This document shows, in pieces, positions 21,975 through 52,715 of a stretch of 64,000 nt of DNA. Position 1 is the first letter of the stretch. Each line of letters opens with the position of its first letter. The stretch is taken from assembly GCA_965247585.1 (NCBI GenBank), contig CBDFHC010000005.1, positions 192,334 through 256,333 of the forward strand. The letters run 5' to 3'. The stretch is from Dehalococcoidia bacterium (GTDB lineage Bacteria; Chloroflexota; Dehalococcoidia; Lucifugimonadales; GCA-2712585). A model generated the notes under the pieces. It was not told the DNA's origin. It saw only the letters and a program-made list of their open reading frames with translations, and made no database searches. The position numbers and the translations under genes were made by a program.

Positions 21975-23118
21975 AGTGGAATCAGGGACGGTGATGGGTG
22001 TTGCCAGTGCAAAGGGCTGCGAATCACAGGTTGGTGGTTCGGACCATCCCGCCCAGGAAGGTTTTTAACGGTTTTTTCTGAGGGGTCACCCTCAGACTCC
22101 CGGCAGAGGGGCGCAGCCCCTCTACACTCCCCCCAGGTTCATGTACTTCAAGGTTGACTTTCCCGCTCTCCTTCGAGGGCCTCAGGATGGGCGGGAAAGG
22201 AAGGGCTGAGGGGTTATTTGCGGGAGGATCAGGCAAGGTGATGGGTGTTACCAGTGCAAAGGGCTGCGAATCACAGGTTGGTGGTTCCCACCATCCCGCC
22301 CAGGAAGGTGTTTAACGGTTTTTTCTGAGGGTCACCCTCAGACTCCCGGCAGAGGGGCGCAGCCCCTCTGCACTCCCCCTAGGTTGATGTACTTCAAGGT
22401 TGACTTTCCCGCTCTCCTTCGAGGGCCTAAGGATGAGCGGGTTGGATAGGCAGAGGGGCTATTCGCGGGAGGATCAGGCAAGGTGATGGGTGTTGCCGGG
22501 ACAAAGGGTTGCGAATCACAGGTTGGTGGTTCGGACCATCCCGCCCAGGAAGGTCTTTAACGGTTTTTTCTGAGGGGTCACCCTCAGACTCCCGGCAGAG
22601 GGGCGCAGCCCCTCTGCACTCCCCCTAGCTGGATGTACTTCAAGGTTGACTTTCCCGCTCTCCTTCAAGGGCCTCAGGATGGGCGGGTTCGATAGGCAGA
22701 GGGGCTATTTGCAGGAGGATCAGGCAAGGTGATGGGTGTTACCAGTGCAAAGGGCTGCGAATCACAGGTTGGTGGTTCCCACCATCCCGCCCAGGAAGGT
22801 TTTTAACGGTTTGTTCTGAGGGTCACCCTCAGACTCCCGGCAGAGGGGCTGCGCCCCTCTGCACTCCCCCCAGGTTGATGTACTTCAAGGTTGACTTTCC
22901 CGCTCTCCTTCGAGGGCCTAAGGATGAGCGGGTTGGATAGGCAGAGGGGCTATTCGCGGGAGGATCAGGCAAGGTGATGGGTGTTGCCGGAACAAAGGGT
23001 TGCGAATCACAGGTTGGTGGTTCCGACCATCCCGCCCAGGAAGGTTTTTAACGGTTTGTTCTGAGGGTCACCCTCAGACTCCCGGCAGAGGGGCTGCGCC
23101 CCTCTGCACTCCCCCTTG
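21975..23118 (+). repeat. Tandem array of [A + E] units, about 246-bp period, 4.6 copies, with a 491-bp higher-order (dimer) periodicity
   Basis: GGTGATGGGTGTT occurs at 21990, 22237, 22482, 22728 and 22973. Alternate units share diagnostic variants (see the finding on this array). Confidence 0.95.
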
Positions 23119-23160
23119 GTGGCTGAGGTGGTGGTGGACGAAACGCCAGGGGGTTGGGGG

Positions 23161-45622: not shown

Positions 45623-47323
45623 ATGAAGCTGAACGGGGGTCAGATAGTATGTGAAAGCCTGCTGCGGGAGGGGGTGGAGATTGTGTTCGGGATTCCCGGA
45701 GGGGCGATTCTGACGCTGTACCAGACGCTGCCACAGTATCCCCAGTTGCGGCACGTGCTGATGCGCCACGAGCAAGGGGCGGCGCACGCGGCGGACGGGT
45801 ACGCCAGGGCGACGGGGAGGGTTGGAGTAGCCTTCGGGACGTCAGGTCCCGGGGCGACGAACCTGGTGACGGGAATAGCCACGGCACAGATGGACTCGGT
45901 GCCGACGGTGTTTGTGACCGGTCAGGTGGGACGGGACGCCATTGGGAAGGACGCTTTTCAGGAGACGGACGTCACCGGGGTGACGCTGCCGATCACGAAG
46001 CACAACTACCTGGTATGGAACGCCAGCGAGATTGCAGAAGTAATCAAGGAGGCGTTCTACCTCGCGAGGACAGGGAGGCCGGGTCCGGTGCTGGTGGATA
46101 TACCGAAGGATGTGTTTGTGGAGGAGGCGGAGTTCGAGTACCCGGAGACGGTGGACCTGCCGAACTATGTACCGGCGTTGGAAGCCGATCCGGCGGCGGT
46201 GGAGGAAGCGGCGAAGCTGATTCGGGAGGCGAAGCGGCCGCTGATTCTGGCGGGACACGGGAACATTATCTCGAGGTCGTACGAAGAGCTGCGGGAGCTG
46301 GCGGAGAAGACGCAGATACCAGTGATAACAACGCTTTTGGGGATCAGCTCGTTCCCGGACACGCACCCGCTGTGCGTTGGGATGCCGGGGATGCACGGGA
46401 TGGCGTACGCCAACATTGCCATAGACGAGTCTGACTTGCTGATAGCGTTGGGAATGCGATTTGACGACCGGATTACGGGAAAGCTGAGCCGGTTCGCGCC
46501 GAACGCCAAGGTGATCCACGTGGAGATAGACCCGTCAGAGATACACAAGAACGTGAGAGCCACGGTGCCGCTGGTGGGTGATGTGAAGAGCGTGTTAAAG
46601 CAGCTTATCCCGGCGGTGGAACCGTTGAGCCATGAGGAGTGGGTCCAGCGGATCCAAGAGTTGAAGGTGGCGCACCCGCCAATGCGGCCCAAGACGACGG
46701 GGGAGCTGAGGCCGCAGTACATCTTGCAGGCGCTATCAGAGGCGACCAAGGGAGAGGCGGTGATAGTGACGGGGGTGGGCCAGCACCAGATGTGGGCGGC
46801 GCAACACTGCACGTTCACGAAGCCGAACAGCCTGATCACTTCGGGCGGGTTGGGAACGATGGGGTTCGAGGTGCCAGCGGCGCTGGGAGCGCAGATGGGG
46901 CTTCCCGGAACGCAGGTGTGGTCTGTGGCCGGCGATGGGGGATTCCAGATGACGATGTCAGAATTGGCAACGATGGTGGAGAACAAGGTGCCGGTGAAGT
47001 TCGCGCTGCTGAACAATAATTTCCTGGGGATGGTGCGGCAGTGGCAGGACCTGTTCTACGATAAGAGCTACGTGCATACGGGGTACACGGGGAACCCGGA
47101 TTTTGTGAAGCTGGCGGACGCGTTTGGGATGTACGGGGCCAGGGTGACGCGGGAAGAGGATGTGCTGCCGGCGATAAGGGCGGCAATGGAGGAGCCGGGG
47201 CCGACGCTGATAGACTTTGTTGTGGCACGGGAGGAGAATGTGTACCCAATGATACCGGCGGGGGGCACGGTTGATCAGCAGATGGAGGAGCCGATAGAGG
47301 AGCCGATAGAGGGTCACGCCTGA
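45623..47323 (+). CDS. ilvB: Acetolactate synthase, large (catalytic) subunit
   Basis: 566 aa ThDP enzyme with [24 protein letters not shown] and GDGGFQM. It is followed by ilvN and ilvC. Confidence 0.95.
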
Positions 47324-47862
47324 TGCAGGATAGGACCACAACGCCGGAGAACACTACTACGATAGTGGCTATGGTGCGGGACCGGCCCGGGGTTCTGAAC
47401 CGGGTGTCCAGCATGTTCCGCCGCCGAAACTTCAACATTGTGAGCCTGGCGGTGGGACAGTCAGAGGCGCCAGGAATGTCACGGATGACGTTCGTGGTGA
47501 CCGGTGACGACGCCACGGTGGACCAGGTGATAAAGCAGCTTCGGAAGCTGATTGACGTAGCGTCAGTGAGCCCCTTAAGCGAACAGCACATGGTGTCCAG
47601 GGAGCTGGCGCTGATCCGGGTGCACGCGAGCTCGCTGACGCGGGCGGAAGTGACGCAGATAGTAGAGATATACCGGGCTAATATAGTTGACGTGGCGCCG
47701 GACTCGTTGATAGTTGAAGTGGTGGGTGACGAGGACAAAGTACAGTCCCTGAAGAACCTACTTTCGACCTTCGGGATAACGGAGATGATCCGGACGGGAA
47801 GGGTAGCCATGTTGCGTGGTATGACCGAGGACACGCCGAACGGCAGAACGCCCATATCTTAG
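47323..47862 (+). CDS. ilvN: Acetolactate synthase, small (regulatory) subunit
   Basis: ACT domain ([22 protein letters not shown]). The start overlaps the ilvB stop (TGATG). Confidence 0.95.
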
Positions 47863-47923
47863 GGGCGTCCCGAACCTGATTATTGGGTGTACCAAGCGTC
47901 TAAGAGGAAGAAAGGACTGATTC

Positions 47924-48922
47924 ATGGCGATAATGTATTACGAATCCGACGCCGACCTAGGGCTGTATTCTGACAAGAAGGTGGGAGTGATAGGCTACGG
48001 TAGCCAGGGGCACGCGCACGCGTTGAACCTGCATGACAATGGGGTCGATGTAAAGGTAGGGCTGTACGAGGGAAGCGCGAGCCGGGCGAAGGCCGAGGAG
48101 GCAGGGCTGGAGGTGGGCACGGTGGCGGAGGTGTCCGAGTCGTCTGACGTAATCATTATGTTGATACCGGATACAACGCAGCCGAGGGTTTTCCAGGAGT
48201 CTGTCTTGCCGCACCTGCACCCTGGGAAGACGTTGATGTTCGCGCACGGATTTAACATCCACTATAAGACGATAGTCCCGCCGGCGAACATTGACGTTTC
48301 GATGGTTGCGCCGAAGGCGCCCGGGCACCGAATGAGGGAGGTGTTTGTGAAGGGCTCCGGGGTTCCAGGGTTGCTGGCTATTCACCAGGACGTTTCGGGG
48401 AAGGCAAGGGAGATGGGACTGGCGTATGCCAAGGGGGTGGGGTGCACCCGGGCGGGAGTGCTGGACACGACGTTCAAGGAGGAGACGGAGACGGACCTGT
48501 TCGGGGAGCAGGCGGTACTGTGCGGGGGAGTAACCGCGCTGGTGAAGAACGCATTCGAGGTGCTGACGGAGGCGGGGTATCAGCCGGAGTCGGCGTACTT
48601 TGAGGTGCTGCACGAATTGAAGCTGATAGTAGACTTGATGTACGAGGGCGGTATGGGTTACATGCGCTATTCGGTGAGCGACACGGCGGAGTTTGGGGAC
48701 TACACGCGGGGGCCAATGGTGATAGACGCCAGCGTTAAGGACCGGATGCGAGAGGTGCTGGCGGCGATTCAGGACGGGAGCTTCGCGCGGGAGTGGATAG
48801 CGGAGAATGACGAGGGGCGGGCGCGGTTCCACCGGTTGCGGAAGGAGAACGCGGACCACCCGGTAGAGAAGGTTGGGGTGGAGTTGCGGGGGATGATGCC
48901 GTGGCTAAAGGAGCAGATGTAG
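47924..48922 (+). CDS. ilvC: Ketol-acid reductoisomerase
   Basis: 332 aa class-I KARI with [13 protein letters not shown]. Confidence 0.95.
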
Positions 48923-48926
48923 TAGC

Positions 48927-49117
48927 AGGTCTGGCGATGGGTATCGCCAGTTCAAAGGACTGAGAATCACAGGTTGGTGGTGCCCACCAACCCGCCCAGG
49001 AAGGTTTGTTTAAATATAGTCTGAGGGACACCCTCAGACTGCCGGCAGAGAACTCAGGTTCCCTGCATCCTCCTTGATGACTGGAAGTGGTTGAAAGGTT
49101 GGTGGAATTTTAAAGCG
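48927..49117 (+). repeat. A unit plus internally deleted box fragment
   Basis: The A unit at 48927-49075 starts 5 nt after the ilvC stop. The fragment GGTTGGTGGAATTTTAAAG (49097-49115) ends 2 nt before the ATG of the next gene. Confidence 0.9.
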
Positions 49118-49744
49118 ATGACAACGAACGGAGAGGCAGTAGACGTTTTTGTTTGGTACGACTATATATGACCGTGGTGTTATGTCGGCCTGGAGCGGCT
49201 CGACAGGCTAGGGAAAGAGTTCAACATTAAGGTCCACGGCAGAGCGTTTTTCCTGCGCCCTGATATGCCCAAGGAGGGGACGCCGCGAGAGCCGCGTCCA
49301 GGGGAAGAGGACGGGCTGCTGGCGGAGCCGCTGCGCAGCTATGCATCCGAGGCGGGGTTGGTGATGAGGCGGCCTCCGCTGACGCCGTACACGATTACGG
49401 CGCTGGAGGCCACGGAGCACGCGCAGCAGCAAGGTAAGTTCATGGAGTTCCACCACTCGATGTATAAGGCGCTGTGGGAGGATGGGAAGGACCTGGGAGA
49501 TGCTTCGGCGTTGCGGGAGGTGGCGGAGGGTTGCGGGCTGGAGTGGGCTGAAATGGAGGAGAAGCTGGAGAAGGGGGACTACAGCGCGACGGTGCAGGGG
49601 CAGCACCAGGAGGCGATGGACCTGGGGATCCACGGGATCCCGGCGTTTCTGGTGGGGAACCTGCTGTTCACAGGGGCTCAGCCGTACGAGGTGTTCCAGA
49701 AGGCAATGAACCGCGTGCTGGCGGAGAGGGATGGGGAGGGGTAA
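49118..49744 (+). CDS. DsbA/FrnE-like thiol:disulfide oxidoreductase, probable selenoprotein (TGA 49169-49171 read as Sec)
   Basis: The same frame as ORF 49265-49744 extends upstream as MTTNGEAVDVFVWYDYI-TGA-PWCYVGLERLDRLGKEFNIKVHGRAFFLRPD. The TGA replaces the first Cys of the family CPWC motif, and a SECIS-like hairpin follows. Confidence 0.7.
49183..49205 (+). promoter_or_regulatory. SECIS-like hairpin
   Basis: TGTCGGCC-TGGAGC-GGC(T)CGACA: 8 bp with one bulged U and a G-rich loop. It starts 11 nt after the TGA. Confidence 0.6.
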
Positions 49745-49746
49745 TA

Positions 49747-49800
49747 TCCGAGGGACACCCTCGGACTCCCGGCAAAGGGGCGCTGCTCCTCTGCACTCCC
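49747..49800 (+). repeat. S unit with compensated hairpin 1
   Basis: CCGAGGG-ACA-CCCTCGG (49748-49764; T-A changed to C-G), then ACTCCCGGCAAAGGGGCGCTGCTCCTCTGCACTCCC. It begins 2 nt after the TAA. Confidence 0.9.
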
Positions 49801-49832: not shown

Positions 49833-51017
49833 CTAGTTTTCACTCGCCGCTTCGGGGGCCCAGCCCCAGGGGCGGGGGCCCCAGTGAGCGGTGTAGGCCT
49901 CGCCGCGCTTGACGGTTAGGAAGGGGACGATGGCTTTGTCGACGGGCAGCGGGTTTTCCAGGGTGTCACGGACGATCCAGCTGCCGTCCCTCACTTCCAG
50001 TACCGATATATCGGCCTGATGACCTTCGGCGAGGCTGCCGAGGCGGTGAGCCTGGCCCAGCGCCTGGGCGGGGTTGGAGGTGCACATGGTGACGACTTGC
50101 TCCAGGGTGAAGCCCAAGGCGATGAAACGGGTCATCATCTCTGTCAAGCTGAGGAAGCCAGTGGCGCGTCCGGGGGCGGTGACATCAGTGCTGATGCAGT
50201 GGGGAACGAGGTCCTGATCCAGGACGCGCTGACCGACGTCGAAACTGAAGTTGAACCGGCCGTGGGCGGTGTCCAGCCAGACGCCGCGCTCTCGGGCCTC
50301 TTTTGCCTCGGGGACCAGGCGGCCGTTGGCGTCTAGGACACCGCCGGCGTTGGGGGTGAAGAGGTGGGTGAGGATATCACCCTCGTCCATGATTGGGAGA
50401 AGCTGCCGGATGACGTTGGGGTCGTAGCGTTGCTCGGTGTCGCCGATGTGGACCATGAGCTTGACGCCGCTGTCGCGGGCGGCCTGCTTCGCGAGGCGAG
50501 GCATCTCCATGCCGAAGATTTCCAGGGCGGGCGAGACCATGCGGGCCTTGATACCGCGGATGAGGTCTGGATTTCGCTGGACAGTCTGGATGGTGGCGTC
50601 CAGGTCAATGCTGCCGCGGCTGAAGATGTCCGGCCGGGTGGCGAGGCCGGTGCGGCAGATGTGTAGGAAGCAGATGATCTCCGTCTTGGCGTGGGGGACG
50701 ACGTGGCTGGGAAAGCCGGCAAAGGTGTCGCAGCCGGAGCTACCGGCATCGACGAGGGTGGTGACGCCAGCGTAGACGCCCACTTCGTCCGGGTCGACGC
50801 CGTTGGAGTTTACGCCGGCGTAGACGTGGGTGTGGATGTCTATAAGGCCGGGGGTAACGACGCGGCCGCCGACTTCGACGACGCGTTGGGCGCCGGTGGG
50901 GTCCAGGGAGGGGGCGACTTTGGCGATTTTACCGTCCTGGACGGCGACATCGTTGGGGGCGTTGATGCCGAGGGAGGGGTCTACGACGGTGCCGCCTTTT
51001 ATAAGAAGGTCGTACAT
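49833..51017 (-). CDS. Amidohydrolase/deacetylase family metallohydrolase (dihydroorotase-like fold)
   Basis: 394 aa with the GLIDIHTHVY metal motif. Confidence 0.85.
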   Translation of the reverse strand: MYDLLIKGGTVVDPSLGINAPNDVAVQDGKIAKVAPSLDPTGAQRVVEVGGRVVTPGLIDIHTHVYAGVNSNGVDPDEVGVYAGVTTLVDAGSSGCDTFAGFPSHVVPHAKTEIICFLHICRTGLATRPDIFSRGSIDLDATIQTVQRNPDLIRGIKARMVSPALEIFGMEMPRLAKQAARDSGVKLMVHIGDTEQRYDPNVIRQLLPIMDEGDILTHLFTPNAGGVLDANGRLVPEAKEARERGVWLDTAHGRFNFSFDVGQRVLDQDLVPHCISTDVTAPGRATGFLSLTEMMTRFIALGFTLEQVVTMCTSNPAQALGQAHRLGSLAEGHQADISVLEVRDGSWIVRDTLENPLPVDKAIVPFLTVKRGEAYTAHWGPRPWGWAPEAASEN

Positions 51018-51534: not shown

Positions 51535-52443
51535 CTAGAGCCAACGGCGGAGCCAGTGGCCAAGTTTCATTTCTAGGCGGTTGCGGGGGGTGATGTGGGC
51601 GGTGACGAAGCGGGCCATGTCCGGGCTACCGAATACCCAGGCGGGGCGGTGGGACTTTAGCTGCTCCGGGGTCATGCCTTCGCCCTGGGGGTTGAAGAAT
51701 CCCTCGAAGGGCTCCCACGAGGAGAGGCGTTTTCTGGCGGCGAGGGCGAGGCCCTGGGCCTCGGTGACGAGGGTGATGCCGCCGGCGACGTCCCAAACCC
51801 AGGGGCTGCCGAAGAATGCGTACTGGATGACGCCGCAGGAGACCATGGCCATCTCGTAGGCGGCACTGCCAGCGGAGCGTAGCTCTCCTACCTGGCGACG
51901 CAGGCCCTTTTTGAGGCGGAAGGCGCGGACCCAGGAGGCAGGGAATATGGCGATGCGGTTTCGCTGGGGACGGTCGAATTGGGCCACCTGGACTGGGAGA
52001 TCGTCCTGGAAGGCGCCGCCGCCGCTTCGGGCGTGGAAGACGCTGCCCTGGGGGTTACGAGGCGAGGGGACGAAGATGCTGCCGACCACGGGGCGGCCGC
52101 GGTGGAGGACACCCACGGAGACGGCGAAGATGGGGAGGCCGTTGATGAAGTTGGTGGTGCCGTCCAGGGGGTCCAGGACCCAGGTTACCTCGGCGGAGGG
52201 GCTGTCCACCATGGAGCCCTCTTCGGCCAAGATGGCGTGGCCGGGGTAGCGCTCTAAGATGGCGGTTTTGAGGAATTCCTCGCTGCGTTTATCAACATCT
52301 GTGACGGGGTCTGAGCCGTCTTTGGACTTGTATTCGACCTGCAGGGGGCGTTGAAAGGCCTCGAGGAGTATGGCGCCAGCCTTTTGGGCGATATCAGTGG
52401 AAAAGCTCTCGATCTCTTTTAGGTCGGCGTCATCCATTGGCAT
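51535..52443 (-). CDS. Inositol monophosphatase family protein
   Basis: WVLDPLDGTTNF motif. I chose ATG 52443 as the start; the ORF extends to 52494. Confidence 0.8.
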   Translation of the reverse strand: MPMDDADLKEIESFSTDIAQKAGAILLEAFQRPLQVEYKSKDGSDPVTDVDKRSEEFLKTAILERYPGHAILAEEGSMVDSPSAEVTWVLDPLDGTTNFINGLPIFAVSVGVLHRGRPVVGSIFVPSPRNPQGSVFHARSGGGAFQDDLPVQVAQFDRPQRNRIAIFPASWVRAFRLKKGLRRQVGELRSAGSAAYEMAMVSCGVIQYAFFGSPWVWDVAGGITLVTEAQGLALAARKRLSSWEPFEGFFNPQGEGMTPEQLKSHRPAWVFGSPDMARFVTAHITPRNRLEMKLGHWLRRWL

Positions 52444-52484
52444 GCGATATTCTACCGCAAGATTGGCAGGGGGATTTGGTGGTT

Positions 52485-52715
52485 TGGGGGGCAATCAGGG
52501 ATCGCGAGGTGTATGGCCGATGTGAAGGGTTGAGAATCACAGGTTGGCGGCGCACCTCCTCTGTAACTATCCCCCTCGATAAGGGGCGAGGATTTTTACT
52601 GAGGGACACCCTCAGACTCCCCCTCTAAGGTCGTCTTTCAAGGGCCGACGTTTCTATTTCGGAGGCGATCCGGCATGGAGTGGAGGCGCGCCTGGGGCGA
52701 TGATGGGAGGCCCCA
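52485..52715 (+). repeat. Degenerate A unit plus H-like module
   Basis: GGGCAATCAGGGATCGCGAGG...GAGAATCACAGGTTGGCGGCGCACC...CTGAGGGACACCCTCAGACTCC, then TTTCTATTTCGGAGGCGATCCGGCATGG. Confidence 0.8.

What the first reader, a model, noticed from the sequence alone, without database searches (positions are those of the whole stretch)
49118..49744. DsbA/FrnE-like gene with an in-frame TGA at the redox cysteine and a SECIS-like hairpin: probable selenoprotein
The ORF track shows only a 159-aa ORF from ATG 49265, which lacks the N-terminal redox motif of this family. The same frame continues upstream to ATG 49118 as MTTNGEAVDVFVWYDYI-TGA-PWCYVGLERLDRLGKEFNIKVHGRAFFLRPD. The TGA (49169-49171) falls exactly where FrnE/DsbA-family proteins have the first Cys of CPWC, giving U-P-W-C. 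Eleven nt downstream lies the hairpin TGTCGGCC-TGGAGC-GGC(T)CGACA (49183-49205). It has 8 bp, one bulged U and a G-rich apical loop, which is the position and shape expected of a bacterial SECIS. Sec-containing DsbA-like proteins are known from marine metagenomes, so the family is not new. Here it would be annotated as a truncated gene or pseudogene.
Basis: partly seen in the sequence, partly recalled or inferred. Interest (0 to 1): 0.75.

Follow-up and report, generated by a model that had tools for sequence, protein, structure and literature searches.

The report
Mis-annotated selenocysteine DsbA/FrnE-like oxidoreductase gene
This is a thiol-disulfide oxidoreductase gene whose active-site cysteine is replaced by selenocysteine encoded by an in-frame TGA; gene callers cut it short, but it belongs to a selenoprotein family known since 2005.

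Summary
Read through, the 208-aa product covers the whole Pfam DSBA domain. The 159-aa ORF that gene callers see covers only the last two thirds.

The TGA aligns with the first Cys of CPWC in D. radiodurans FrnE and in seven Cys-containing homologues. In 79 of 79 usable orthologous loci from other Chloroflexota/Dehalococcoidia species the codon is also TGA. It is flanked by conserved coding sequence on both sides.

The hairpin meets all four constraints of the published bacterial SECIS model, here and in 72 of 80 sequences. It keeps 89% pairing and has four pairs with compensatory changes. Synonymous variation is suppressed in the stem codons.

Two genomes carrying the orthologue (L029, L034) are listed in BSepDB among the ten most selenoprotein-rich bacteria. 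That database covers only species with a Sec system.

I could not find selA, selB, selD or tRNA-Sec.

Verdict: a real selenoprotein gene, and a new member of the known "DsbA-like, UxxC" family. The main practical point is pervasive mis-annotation: all 120 best database entries are N-terminally truncated.

The parts
49118..49744 (+). Complete coding sequence of a 208-residue DsbA/FrnE-like selenoprotein (ATG 49118, Sec-UGA at codon 18, TAA stop 49742-49744)
   Evidence: Translation. Pfam DSBA E 2e-34 over residues 10-197, profile positions 2-190 of 191. FrnE 5cnw E 3e-16 over residues 3-204. The start is supported by the Cys-form homologue P0146, which begins MTTDTESHQVSVWYDYIC.
49169..49180 (+). 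Redox motif U-P-W-C; TGA 49169-49171 is the predicted selenocysteine codon
   Evidence: Aligned with Cys in FrnE and in 7/7 Cys-form homologues. TGA in 79/79 orthologous loci, with P, W and C invariant after it.
49183..49205 (+). Predicted bacterial SECIS hairpin: 8-bp stem with bulged U49200 and apical loop UGGAGC 49191-49196. It lies within codons 22-30 (Tyr-Val-Gly-Leu-Glu-Arg-Leu-Asp-Arg).
   Evidence: -11.6 kcal/mol, loop of 6 nt with G at position 2, 19 nt after the UGA: all four constraints of the bSECIS model are met, as in 72/80 family members. 89.2% of cells paired; 4 pairs with compensatory changes; 0/500 shuffles reach the covariation score. Third-position entropy is 0.00-0.39 bits in stem codons +5, +6, +7 and +10, against 1.2-1.9 in comparable codons outside.
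49265..49744 (+). The 159-aa ORF that gene callers report (database cluster P0001). This is the truncated annotation, not a separate gene.
   Evidence: ORF list. It is 100% identical to P0001. It covers only DSBA profile positions 62-190.

Best explanation
The locus encodes a cytoplasmic FrnE-type thiol-disulfide oxidoreductase of 208 residues. The N-terminal, nucleophilic residue of its CxxC redox motif is selenocysteine (U18-P-W-C21).

Proposed mechanism, step by step:
1. Translation starts at ATG 49118.
2. The ribosome reaches UGA 49169-49171. SelB carrying Sec-tRNA(Sec) is held by the apical part of the hairpin at 49183-49205, whose loop starts 19 nt downstream. It delivers selenocysteine instead of allowing termination.
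3. The ribosome melts the hairpin, which itself encodes the start of helix alpha-1 (Y-V-G-L-E-R-L-D), and finishes at TAA 49742.
4. The enzyme then works like FrnE/DsbA, through a transient selenenylsulfide in place of a disulfide.

Shown here:
- The TGA is conserved, with coding sequence on both sides.
- The TGA position pairs with Cys in homologues.
- The hairpin is conserved and fits the SECIS model.
- Relatives carrying the orthologue are recorded in the literature as Sec users.

Inferred:
- Sec is actually inserted in this organism.
- SelB binds this hairpin.
- The protein is cytoplasmic and has a disulfide reductase/isomerase role.
For: Domain and active site:
- The read-through product matches the full DSBA domain, and the called ORF only positions 62-190.
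- The TGA aligns with the first Cys of CPWC in FrnE 5cnw and in 7/7 Cys-form homologues, including P0146 at 61% identity.

Conservation of the TGA:
- 79/79 orthologous loci from distinct GTDB species (57-69% aa identity) have TGA there. It is preceded by in-frame W-Y-D-Y-(I/V) and an upstream start codon.
- Variation upstream of the TGA is concentrated at third codon positions.
- TGA is an ordinary stop for other genes in the window, for example the acetolactate synthase gene ending at 47323. So there is no genome-wide reassignment.

Hairpin:
- It meets all four bSECIS constraints (model from PMC13188914).
- It is 89% paired, with compensatory changes at 4 pairs. Some are double synonymous changes, such as CTG>TTG with CGG>CGA in L038.

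Literature:
- The DsbA-like UxxC selenoprotein family (pfam01323/COG2761) is established (PMC1088965; PMC2398784; PMC13188914).
- The genomes behind L029 and L034 are listed with 46 and 49 selenoprotein genes in a study restricted to species with a Sec system (PMC13326102).
Against: Sec machinery was not found:
- No selA, selB, selD or tRNA-Sec in the 64-kb window, in 80 orthologous loci (about 1.5 Mb), or in 120 metagenome loci that share the window's repeat (0.6 Mb). tblastn with the E. coli proteins gave only EF-Tu and TypA.
- The window's own genome was never examined outside these 64 kb.

The hairpin is unremarkable on its own:
- z = -0.61 against shuffles.
- 10% of TGA trinucleotides in the window are followed by a hairpin that meets the model.

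The covariation is modest:
- Only 16 cells show double changes, probably from a few events.
- It sits inside strongly conserved coding sequence.
- The shuffle control does not correct for relatedness of the sequences.

Other gaps:
- 8 of 80 sequences miss one model constraint as MFE folds.
- No curated Rfam or NCBIfam model confirms the call.
Confidence: 0.9

Rival explanations
1. The TGA is a genuine stop. The locus would then be a pseudogene, or a gene for an N-terminally truncated DsbA-like protein that starts at ATG 49265 or at an alternative start just after the TGA, with no redox motif.
For: This is how every annotation pipeline reads it: 120 of the 120 best database entries are such truncated calls. 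No Sec machinery was found in any sequence I could search.
Against: A stop that inactivates a gene would not stay at the same codon in 79/79 species while the 8 codons before it evolve like coding sequence and W-Y-D-Y and P-W-C stay invariant. The truncated product lacks strand beta-1, the active site and 61 of 191 profile positions. The start codons chosen by callers differ from species to species.
Confidence: 0.03
2. The UGA is read through without selenocysteine. Either a near-cognate tRNA inserts Trp or Cys, or a lineage-specific recoding system is used, and the hairpin acts as a general read-through stimulator.
For: No sel genes or tRNA-Sec were seen in about 2.1 Mb of related sequence. 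The expectation was roughly 1-2 hits if every locus came from a Sec user, so this is only weakly informative. Cys insertion at Sec-UGA codons under selenium shortage is known in other systems (from my own knowledge, not tested here).
Against: The codon lies at the catalytic Cys position, the signature of Sec/Cys pairs. The hairpin has the spacing and the loop guanine specific to SelB-dependent SECIS elements. Two orthologue-bearing genomes were scored as having the Sec biosynthetic system and 46-49 selenoproteins.
Confidence: 0.05
3. The TGA is a sequencing or assembly error for TGC/TGT, for example in a long-read MAG.
For: The window has a very odd base composition, which could suggest a problematic assembly.
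Against: The same TGA occurs in 79 independent assemblies made with different technologies and from different projects. A second database member from another contig gives the same truncated ORF.
Confidence: 0.01

Closest known systems
DsbA-like selenoprotein, form 1 ('DsbA 1'; pfam01323 / COG2761, motif UxxC). Described from the Sargasso Sea (Zhang, Fomenko & Gladyshev 2005, PMC1088965) and GOS (PMC2398784), and listed in the 2022 and 2026 reviews (PMC9312934, PMC13188914).
   Same: Same Pfam domain. Sec at the first position of the CxxC motif. SECIS hairpin immediately downstream with a loop guanine. Cys-containing homologues are widespread. Predominantly marine and environmental.
   Different: Nothing in kind. 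This copy belongs to a Chloroflexota/Dehalococcoidia (SAR202-type) orthologous group in which all 80 species examined have Sec. I could not compare it directly with the published representative (NIP15863.1) or with the Sargasso SECIS figure.
FrnE of Deinococcus radiodurans (PDB 5cnw and related entries), a cytoplasmic DsbA-fold disulfide oxidoreductase/isomerase
   Same: Best solved-structure match (E 3e-16, residues 3-204). Same C/U-P-W-C-Y-(V/I)-G active-site context at the N-terminus. No signal peptide.
   Different: FrnE uses Cys. Its deposited chain is 260 residues, and the alignment ends at chain residue 222, so it carries a C-terminal extension absent here. From my own knowledge that tail holds a CX4C motif. 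Similarity is low overall apart from the conserved active-site stretch.
Bacterial SECIS elements (consensus model of Zhang & Gladyshev; prototype E. coli fdhF)
   Same: Hairpin inside the coding region. Apical loop 19-21 nt after the UGA. [quoted passage not shown] Stem of at least 4 bp. Energy at or below -7.5 kcal/mol. A bulged U in the window's variant.
   Different: Short (8-9 bp), with no well-supported lower stem: the candidate lower helix is only 69% paired. No sequence similarity to fdhF. SelB binding is untested.
Periplasmic DsbA of E. coli and relatives
   Same: Thioredoxin fold with a helical insertion, and a CxxC-type active site.
   Different: DsbA is exported, has CPHC and acts as an oxidant. 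The protein here has no signal sequence and clusters with the FrnE/COG2761 branch.

Membership tests
DsbA-like selenoprotein form 1 (PF01323, UxxC) | DSBA-like thioredoxin domain above Pfam's gathering score | tested here: met
   119.4 bits against a cut-off of 25.6; residues 10-197 match profile positions 2-190 of 191.
DsbA-like selenoprotein form 1 (PF01323, UxxC) | In-frame TGA aligned with the first Cys of the CxxC motif, with at least two Cys-containing homologues (criterion of PMC1088965) | tested here: met
   Aligned with Cys in FrnE 5cnw and in P0146, P0122, P0145, P0163, P0160, P0151 and P0176.
DsbA-like selenoprotein form 1 (PF01323, UxxC) | [quoted passage not shown] | tested here: met
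   79/79 orthologous loci; W-Y-D-Y before the TGA and P-W-C-Y after it are invariant or nearly so.
DsbA-like selenoprotein form 1 (PF01323, UxxC) | Host genome encodes SelA, SelB, SelD and tRNA-Sec | not testable with these tools
A search seeded with Aquifex SelA returned Aquificota plus unnamed entries and one Nitrospirae, with no Chloroflexota. Indirect support: the genomes of L029 and L034 are in BSepDB, which covers only species with at least two Sec-pathway genes.
Bacterial SECIS element (consensus model, PMC13188914 Fig. 2) | Apical loop of 3-9 nt and upper stem of 4-16 bp | tested here: met
   Loop UGGAGC (6 nt) and an 8-bp stem with one bulged U.
Bacterial SECIS element (consensus model, PMC13188914 Fig. 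2) | At least one G in the first two loop positions | tested here: met
   G at loop position 2 here; 74 of 80 sequences as MFE folds. The 6 sequences with a UCU or UCC loop also comply if the two closing pairs open, giving UGUCUCG.
Bacterial SECIS element (consensus model, PMC13188914 Fig. 2) | 16-37 nt between the UGA and the apical loop | tested here: met
   19 nt here; 19-21 nt in all 80 sequences.
Bacterial SECIS element (consensus model, PMC13188914 Fig. 2) | Minimum free energy at or below -7.5 kcal/mol | tested here: met
   -11.6 kcal/mol here. The range across the family is -14.8 to -5.2, with 2 of 80 above the threshold.
Bacterial SECIS element (consensus model, PMC13188914 Fig. 2) | Structure maintained in evolution beyond what the coding sequence requires | tested here: met
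   89.2% of cells paired against 21-49% for slid partners. Four pairs have compensatory changes. 0/500 shuffles reach the covariation score. Third-position entropy is suppressed in the stem codons. Caveat: few independent events, and the control ignores phylogeny.
Bacterial SECIS element (consensus model, PMC13188914 Fig. 2) | Binds SelB and directs Sec insertion | not testable with these tools
   Needs a binding assay or a reporter assay.
FrnE subfamily (COG2761; D. radiodurans FrnE) | Closest solved relative is FrnE, with the CPWC-type motif near the N-terminus | tested here: met
   5cnw at E 3e-16; the motif context DY-I-[U/C]-PWCY-[VI]-G is shared.
FrnE subfamily (COG2761; D. radiodurans FrnE) | Cytoplasmic: no signal peptide or lipobox | tested here: inconclusive
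   Judged by inspection only. The N-terminus MTTNGEAVDVFVWYDYI has no hydrophobic h-region or lipobox, and the domain starts at residue 10. No signal-peptide predictor was available.
FrnE subfamily (COG2761; D. radiodurans FrnE) | C-terminal extension after the DsbA domain (said to carry a CX4C motif in drFrnE; that detail is from my own knowledge) | tested here: not met
   The product ends at residue 208, right after the DSBA domain. The deposited FrnE chain is 260 residues and the alignment ends at chain residue 222. The last 60 residues here contain no Cys.

The most novel reading that the evidence does not exclude
The evidence does not exclude that the window's organism lacks the canonical SelA/SelB/SelC/SelD system and decodes this conserved UGA some other way. 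It has a very unusual genome composition, and none of its machinery genes was seen. The hairpin would then be a read-through signal, not a SelB-binding SECIS. A milder reading is more likely but less surprising: this is an obligately Sec-containing FrnE orthologue conserved across Dehalococcoidia, whose SECIS constrains the amino-acid sequence of helix alpha-1.
Probability: 0.03. Interest if true: 0.8.

Novelty: new member of a known kind. Interest (0 to 1): 0.22.

Why it matters
- Annotation. Public databases hold this protein and all of its 120 nearest clusters only as N-terminally truncated "DsbA family" fragments without the catalytic motif. Any functional or structural inference drawn from those entries is wrong.
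- Curation. No NCBIfam model exists for this family (the best hit is far below its cut-off), so automated pipelines cannot rescue the gene. The 80-sequence alignment made here could seed such a model, and a SECIS covariance model.
- Biology. The finding adds a clean example of a Sec-only orthologous group in Dehalococcoidia/SAR202-type bacteria, a lineage recently listed among the most selenoprotein-rich bacteria.
- Limits. It does not change what is known about selenoprotein families or about how Sec is inserted.

Tried and rejected
1. Sec machinery nearby.
- ARAGORN and Rfam on the window found no tRNA at all.
- ARAGORN on all fetched loci found no tRNA-Sec.
- A 92-nt "tRNA-Gly(acc)" in L028 is a false call; Rfam finds no tRNA there.
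- tblastn with E. coli SelA, SelB and SelD against the window and 80 loci gave only weak SelB hits. These turned out to be EF-Tu followed by rpmG-secE-nusG-rplK-rplA.
- The same search against 120 metagenome loci gave one hit, which is TypA/BipA.

2. Reaching the source genome.
- Exact look-ups of P0001 and of the ketol-acid reductoisomerase were not on record.
- The cluster look-up gave no accession.

3. The window's abundant 25-mer repeat as a handle.
- I used it to pull contigs of the same or related organisms from metagenomes. It retrieved 120 loci but no sel genes.

4. Seeding a search for Chloroflexota SelA with Aquifex SelA.
- The 120 listed hits were Aquificota, unnamed entries and one Nitrospirae, with no Chloroflexota.

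5. A lower SECIS stem pairing the Pro-Trp codons with a CCAGG about 40 nt downstream.
- Only 69% paired, and weak in the window. Not claimed.

6. Scans of the window for further TGA-interrupted genes, by redox motif and by GC3.
- The results were dominated by antisense and off-frame ORFs of this GC-rich DNA. Uninformative, so other selenoprotein genes in the window are neither found nor excluded.

7. Gene neighbourhood as a clue to function.
- Only L001 shares the acetolactate synthase / ketol-acid reductoisomerase neighbourhood.
- Other loci have a HAD-like hydrolase upstream and an ABC transporter downstream (family names from reading the sequences, not Pfam-tested). There is no conserved redox partner.

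The 190 residues after the TGA were used instead.

Full report
**Observation**

The sequence is exactly as described.
- ATG is at 49118. Seventeen sense codons follow (MTTNGEAVDVFVWYDYI), then TGA at 49169-49171.
- The same frame continues as PWCYVGLERLDRL... to TAA at 49742-49744.
- The mechanical ORF list contains only the 159-aa ORF from ATG 49265.
- Eleven bases after the TGA lies the hairpin TGTCGGCC / TGGAGC / GGC-T-CGACA (49183-49205). It has 8 bp and one bulged U.

**What the protein is**

With Cys written at the stop, the 208-aa product matches Pfam DSBA (PF01323).
- The score is 119 bits, E 2e-34. Residues 10-197 cover profile positions 2-190 of 191.
- The 159-aa ORF covers only positions 62-190. 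It lacks strand beta-1, the active site and the start of helix alpha-1.

The best solved structure is FrnE of Deinococcus radiodurans (5cnw, E 3e-16, residues 3-204).
- In the printed alignment the stop position sits under the first Cys of FrnE's CPWC.
- The N-terminus has no signal-peptide-like stretch, judged by inspection.
- There is no counterpart of FrnE's C-terminal extension.

**Is the TGA translated?**

A protein search returned 359 relatives. The best 120 were all 158-189 aa long and covered 75-89% of the query.
- The ten I read begin at varying points just after the TGA position, and none has the redox motif.
- One is named "DsbA family protein" by NCBI.

A scan of one genome per GTDB species gave 233 relatives, of which the best 80 loci were kept.
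- All are Chloroflexota, Dehalococcoidia or SAR202 MAGs, at 57-69% amino-acid identity.
- In 79 of the 79 loci with enough upstream sequence, the codon before P-W-C-Y is TGA.
- That TGA is preceded in frame by (V/I)-W-Y-D-Y-(I/V), and in 75 of the 79 by an in-frame Met codon further upstream, most often 24 codons before the TGA.

Column entropies support coding upstream of the TGA.
- The eight upstream codons vary mainly at third positions. For example, Val at codon -8 has 0.53, 0.10 and 1.93 bits at positions 1, 2 and 3.
- W, D and Y are invariant or nearly so.

So the upstream segment is under protein-coding selection in the same frame as the downstream domain. This excludes a pseudogene and a sequencing error.

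TGA ends other well-supported genes of the window, such as the acetolactate synthase large subunit at 45623-47323. The codon is therefore not reassigned genome-wide.

**Sec/Cys pairs**

I searched a library of cluster representatives at 50% identity with the 190 residues after the TGA. It found full-length homologues whose match starts at about residue 15-20. Their sequences carry Cys at the position of the TGA.
- P0146: a fragment at 61% identity, MTTDTESHQVSVWYDYICPWCYVGLDRLDRL.
- P0122: 47% identity.
- P0145, P0163, P0160, P0151 and P0176.

In the multiple alignment the stop aligns with Cys in 7 of 7. P0146 also supports ATG 49118 as the start codon.

**The hairpin**

On its own the hairpin is not remarkable.
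- A 71-nt fold has z = -0.61 against shuffles.
- 10.4% of the 1698 TGA trinucleotides in this 61%-GC window are followed by a hairpin that meets the SECIS model. 1.65% are followed by one as good as this.

The published bacterial SECIS model has four constraints (PMC13188914):
- a loop of 3-9 nt and a stem of 4-16 bp;
- a G in one of the first two loop positions;
- 16-37 nt between the UGA and the loop;
- a free energy at or below -7.5 kcal/mol.

The window hairpin meets all four: loop UGGAGC, 8 bp, 19 nt spacing, -11.6 kcal/mol.
- 72 of the 80 family sequences also meet all four as MFE folds.
- Six more comply if the two closing pairs open.

In the 80-sequence alignment the nine-pair helix holds up well (columns 16-24 with 28-36).
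- It is paired in 89.2% of cells, against 21-49% when the 3' partners are slid.
- Four pairs show compensatory changes: G-C to A-U at 16/36, C-G to G-C at 18/34, and C-G to U-A at 21/31 and 22/30.
- None of 500 shuffles reaches the covariation score.
- Some compensations are double synonymous changes, such as CTG>TTG with CGG>CGA in L038.

Third-position entropy is 0.17, 0.39, 0.00 and 0.17 bits in stem codons +5, +6, +7 and +10. It is 1.2-1.9 bits in comparable Val and Pro codons outside the stem. This points to selection on the RNA as well as on the protein.

Caveats on the hairpin:
- The independent events are few.
- The shuffle control ignores phylogeny.
- A candidate lower stem is only 69% paired and is not claimed.
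- Rfam has no matching family.

**Sec machinery**

This is the weak point. I found no selA, selB, selD or tRNA-Sec in any of these:
- the window;
- the 80 orthologous loci;
- 120 metagenome loci retrieved through the window's abundant repeat.

The weak SelB hits were EF-Tu and TypA. The source genome could not be reached. A search seeded with Aquifex SelA returned no Chloroflexota.

The literature fills part of the gap. BSepDB analysed only species with at least two of SelA, SelB and SelD. Among the ten bacteria with the most selenoprotein genes it lists two Dehalococcoidia:
- "Dehalococcoidia bacterium UBA1141", with 49 genes;
- [quoted passage not shown], with 46 genes.

These are the genomes of my loci L034 and L029. 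Both carry the orthologous TGA and hairpin. So Sec use is documented in the lineage. For the window's own organism it remains an inference.

**Comparison with what is known**

DsbA-like proteins with UxxC (pfam01323, COG2761) have a long record as a selenoprotein family:
- they were among the new families found in the Sargasso Sea in 2005, with nine sequences;
- "DsbA 1" had 63 sequences in GOS and was enriched in marine samples;
- 41 organisms carried the family by 2016;
- it is listed as "DsbA-like protein form 1" in the 2022 and 2026 reviews.

The gene here meets every testable criterion of that family. No NCBIfam model covers it: the best hit, Rcas_1661, scores 50 bits against a cut-off of 190. 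This explains the systematic truncation in annotation. The gene neighbourhood gives no clue to function.

**Verdict**

- This is a genuine, mis-annotated selenoprotein gene of a known family, with a conserved compact SECIS.
- Confidence is about 0.9. The remaining doubt concerns the untested Sec machinery of this particular genome.
- Novelty is low: a new member of a known kind. Interest is about 0.2, mainly for annotation and for curating a family model.

**Seen in passing**

The window itself is odd in ways unrelated to this gene.
- It has an extreme strand bias in composition. In genes on the + strand, third positions are 59% G and 22% C. In genes on the - strand they are 64% C and 19% G.
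- TAG is the commonest stop codon.
- A three-hairpin intergenic repeat occurs 43 times in 64 kb, always in the same orientation. This includes one copy on each side of this gene and a 245-bp tandem array at 21981-23120.

Noticed in passing
window, 43 sites from 1750 to 63823 (e.g. 49023-49047 and 49750-49774, which flank the gene): The 25-mer GAGGGACACCCTCAGACTCCCGGCA (up to 3 mismatches) occurs 43 times in 64 kb, against 0 expected by chance. Every copy is on the + strand, although genes lie on both strands. It is the core of a composite intergenic unit of about 120-130 nt that folds into three hairpins (z = -3.0). The exact 25-mer is also present in at least 120 JGI metagenome contigs from marine, sediment and groundwater samples, but there it is sparse and not tied to GC skew. 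It is absent from the 80 Dehalococcoidia loci. The uniform orientation suggests a REP/BIME-like element inserted in a strand-specific way. That idea is untested.
   Followed up: partly
window 1-64000: Extreme strand asymmetry in composition. G is 38.1% and C 23.7% overall, and GC skew is +0.08 to +0.34 in every 2-kb bin. In + strand genes third codon positions are 59% G and 22% C. In - strand genes they are 64% C and 19% G. The 80 related loci have a median absolute skew of 0.02. The cause is unknown; it could be a very strong replication-strand mutational bias or an assembly peculiarity.
   Followed up: partly
window, stop codons of 61 greedy non-overlapping ORFs: TAG is the commonest stop (32), ahead of TGA (17) and TAA (12). 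That is unusual for a 61%-GC bacterium. TGA is still used as an ordinary stop by well-supported genes.
   Followed up: no
window 21981-23120: A tandem array of 4.6 copies with a 245-bp period and 92% matches. Each unit contains one copy of the intergenic repeat.
   Followed up: partly
window 45623-48922 (+), 49833-51017 (-) and 51535-52494 (-): Upstream of the gene lie the acetolactate synthase large and small subunits and ketol-acid reductoisomerase. An amidohydrolase and an inositol-monophosphatase-family gene are convergent downstream. Only the closest relative, L001 (Chloroflexota bacterium KW1-S21_197), shares this ilv neighbourhood, at 79-84% identity.
   Followed up: yes
proteins P0123, P0124, P0131, P0132, P0134 and others from the representative search: Many long proteins (about 470-1160 aa) contain 2-5 tandem stretches that match only residues of about 48-185 of the query. 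That is the DsbA-like domain without its N-terminal active-site segment. They could be concatenated mis-calls or a real multi-domain architecture. I did not examine them.
   Followed up: no
L028 17183-17274 (-): ARAGORN reports a 92-nt 'tRNA-Gly(acc)'. Rfam finds no tRNA there, so it is probably a false positive.
   Followed up: yes
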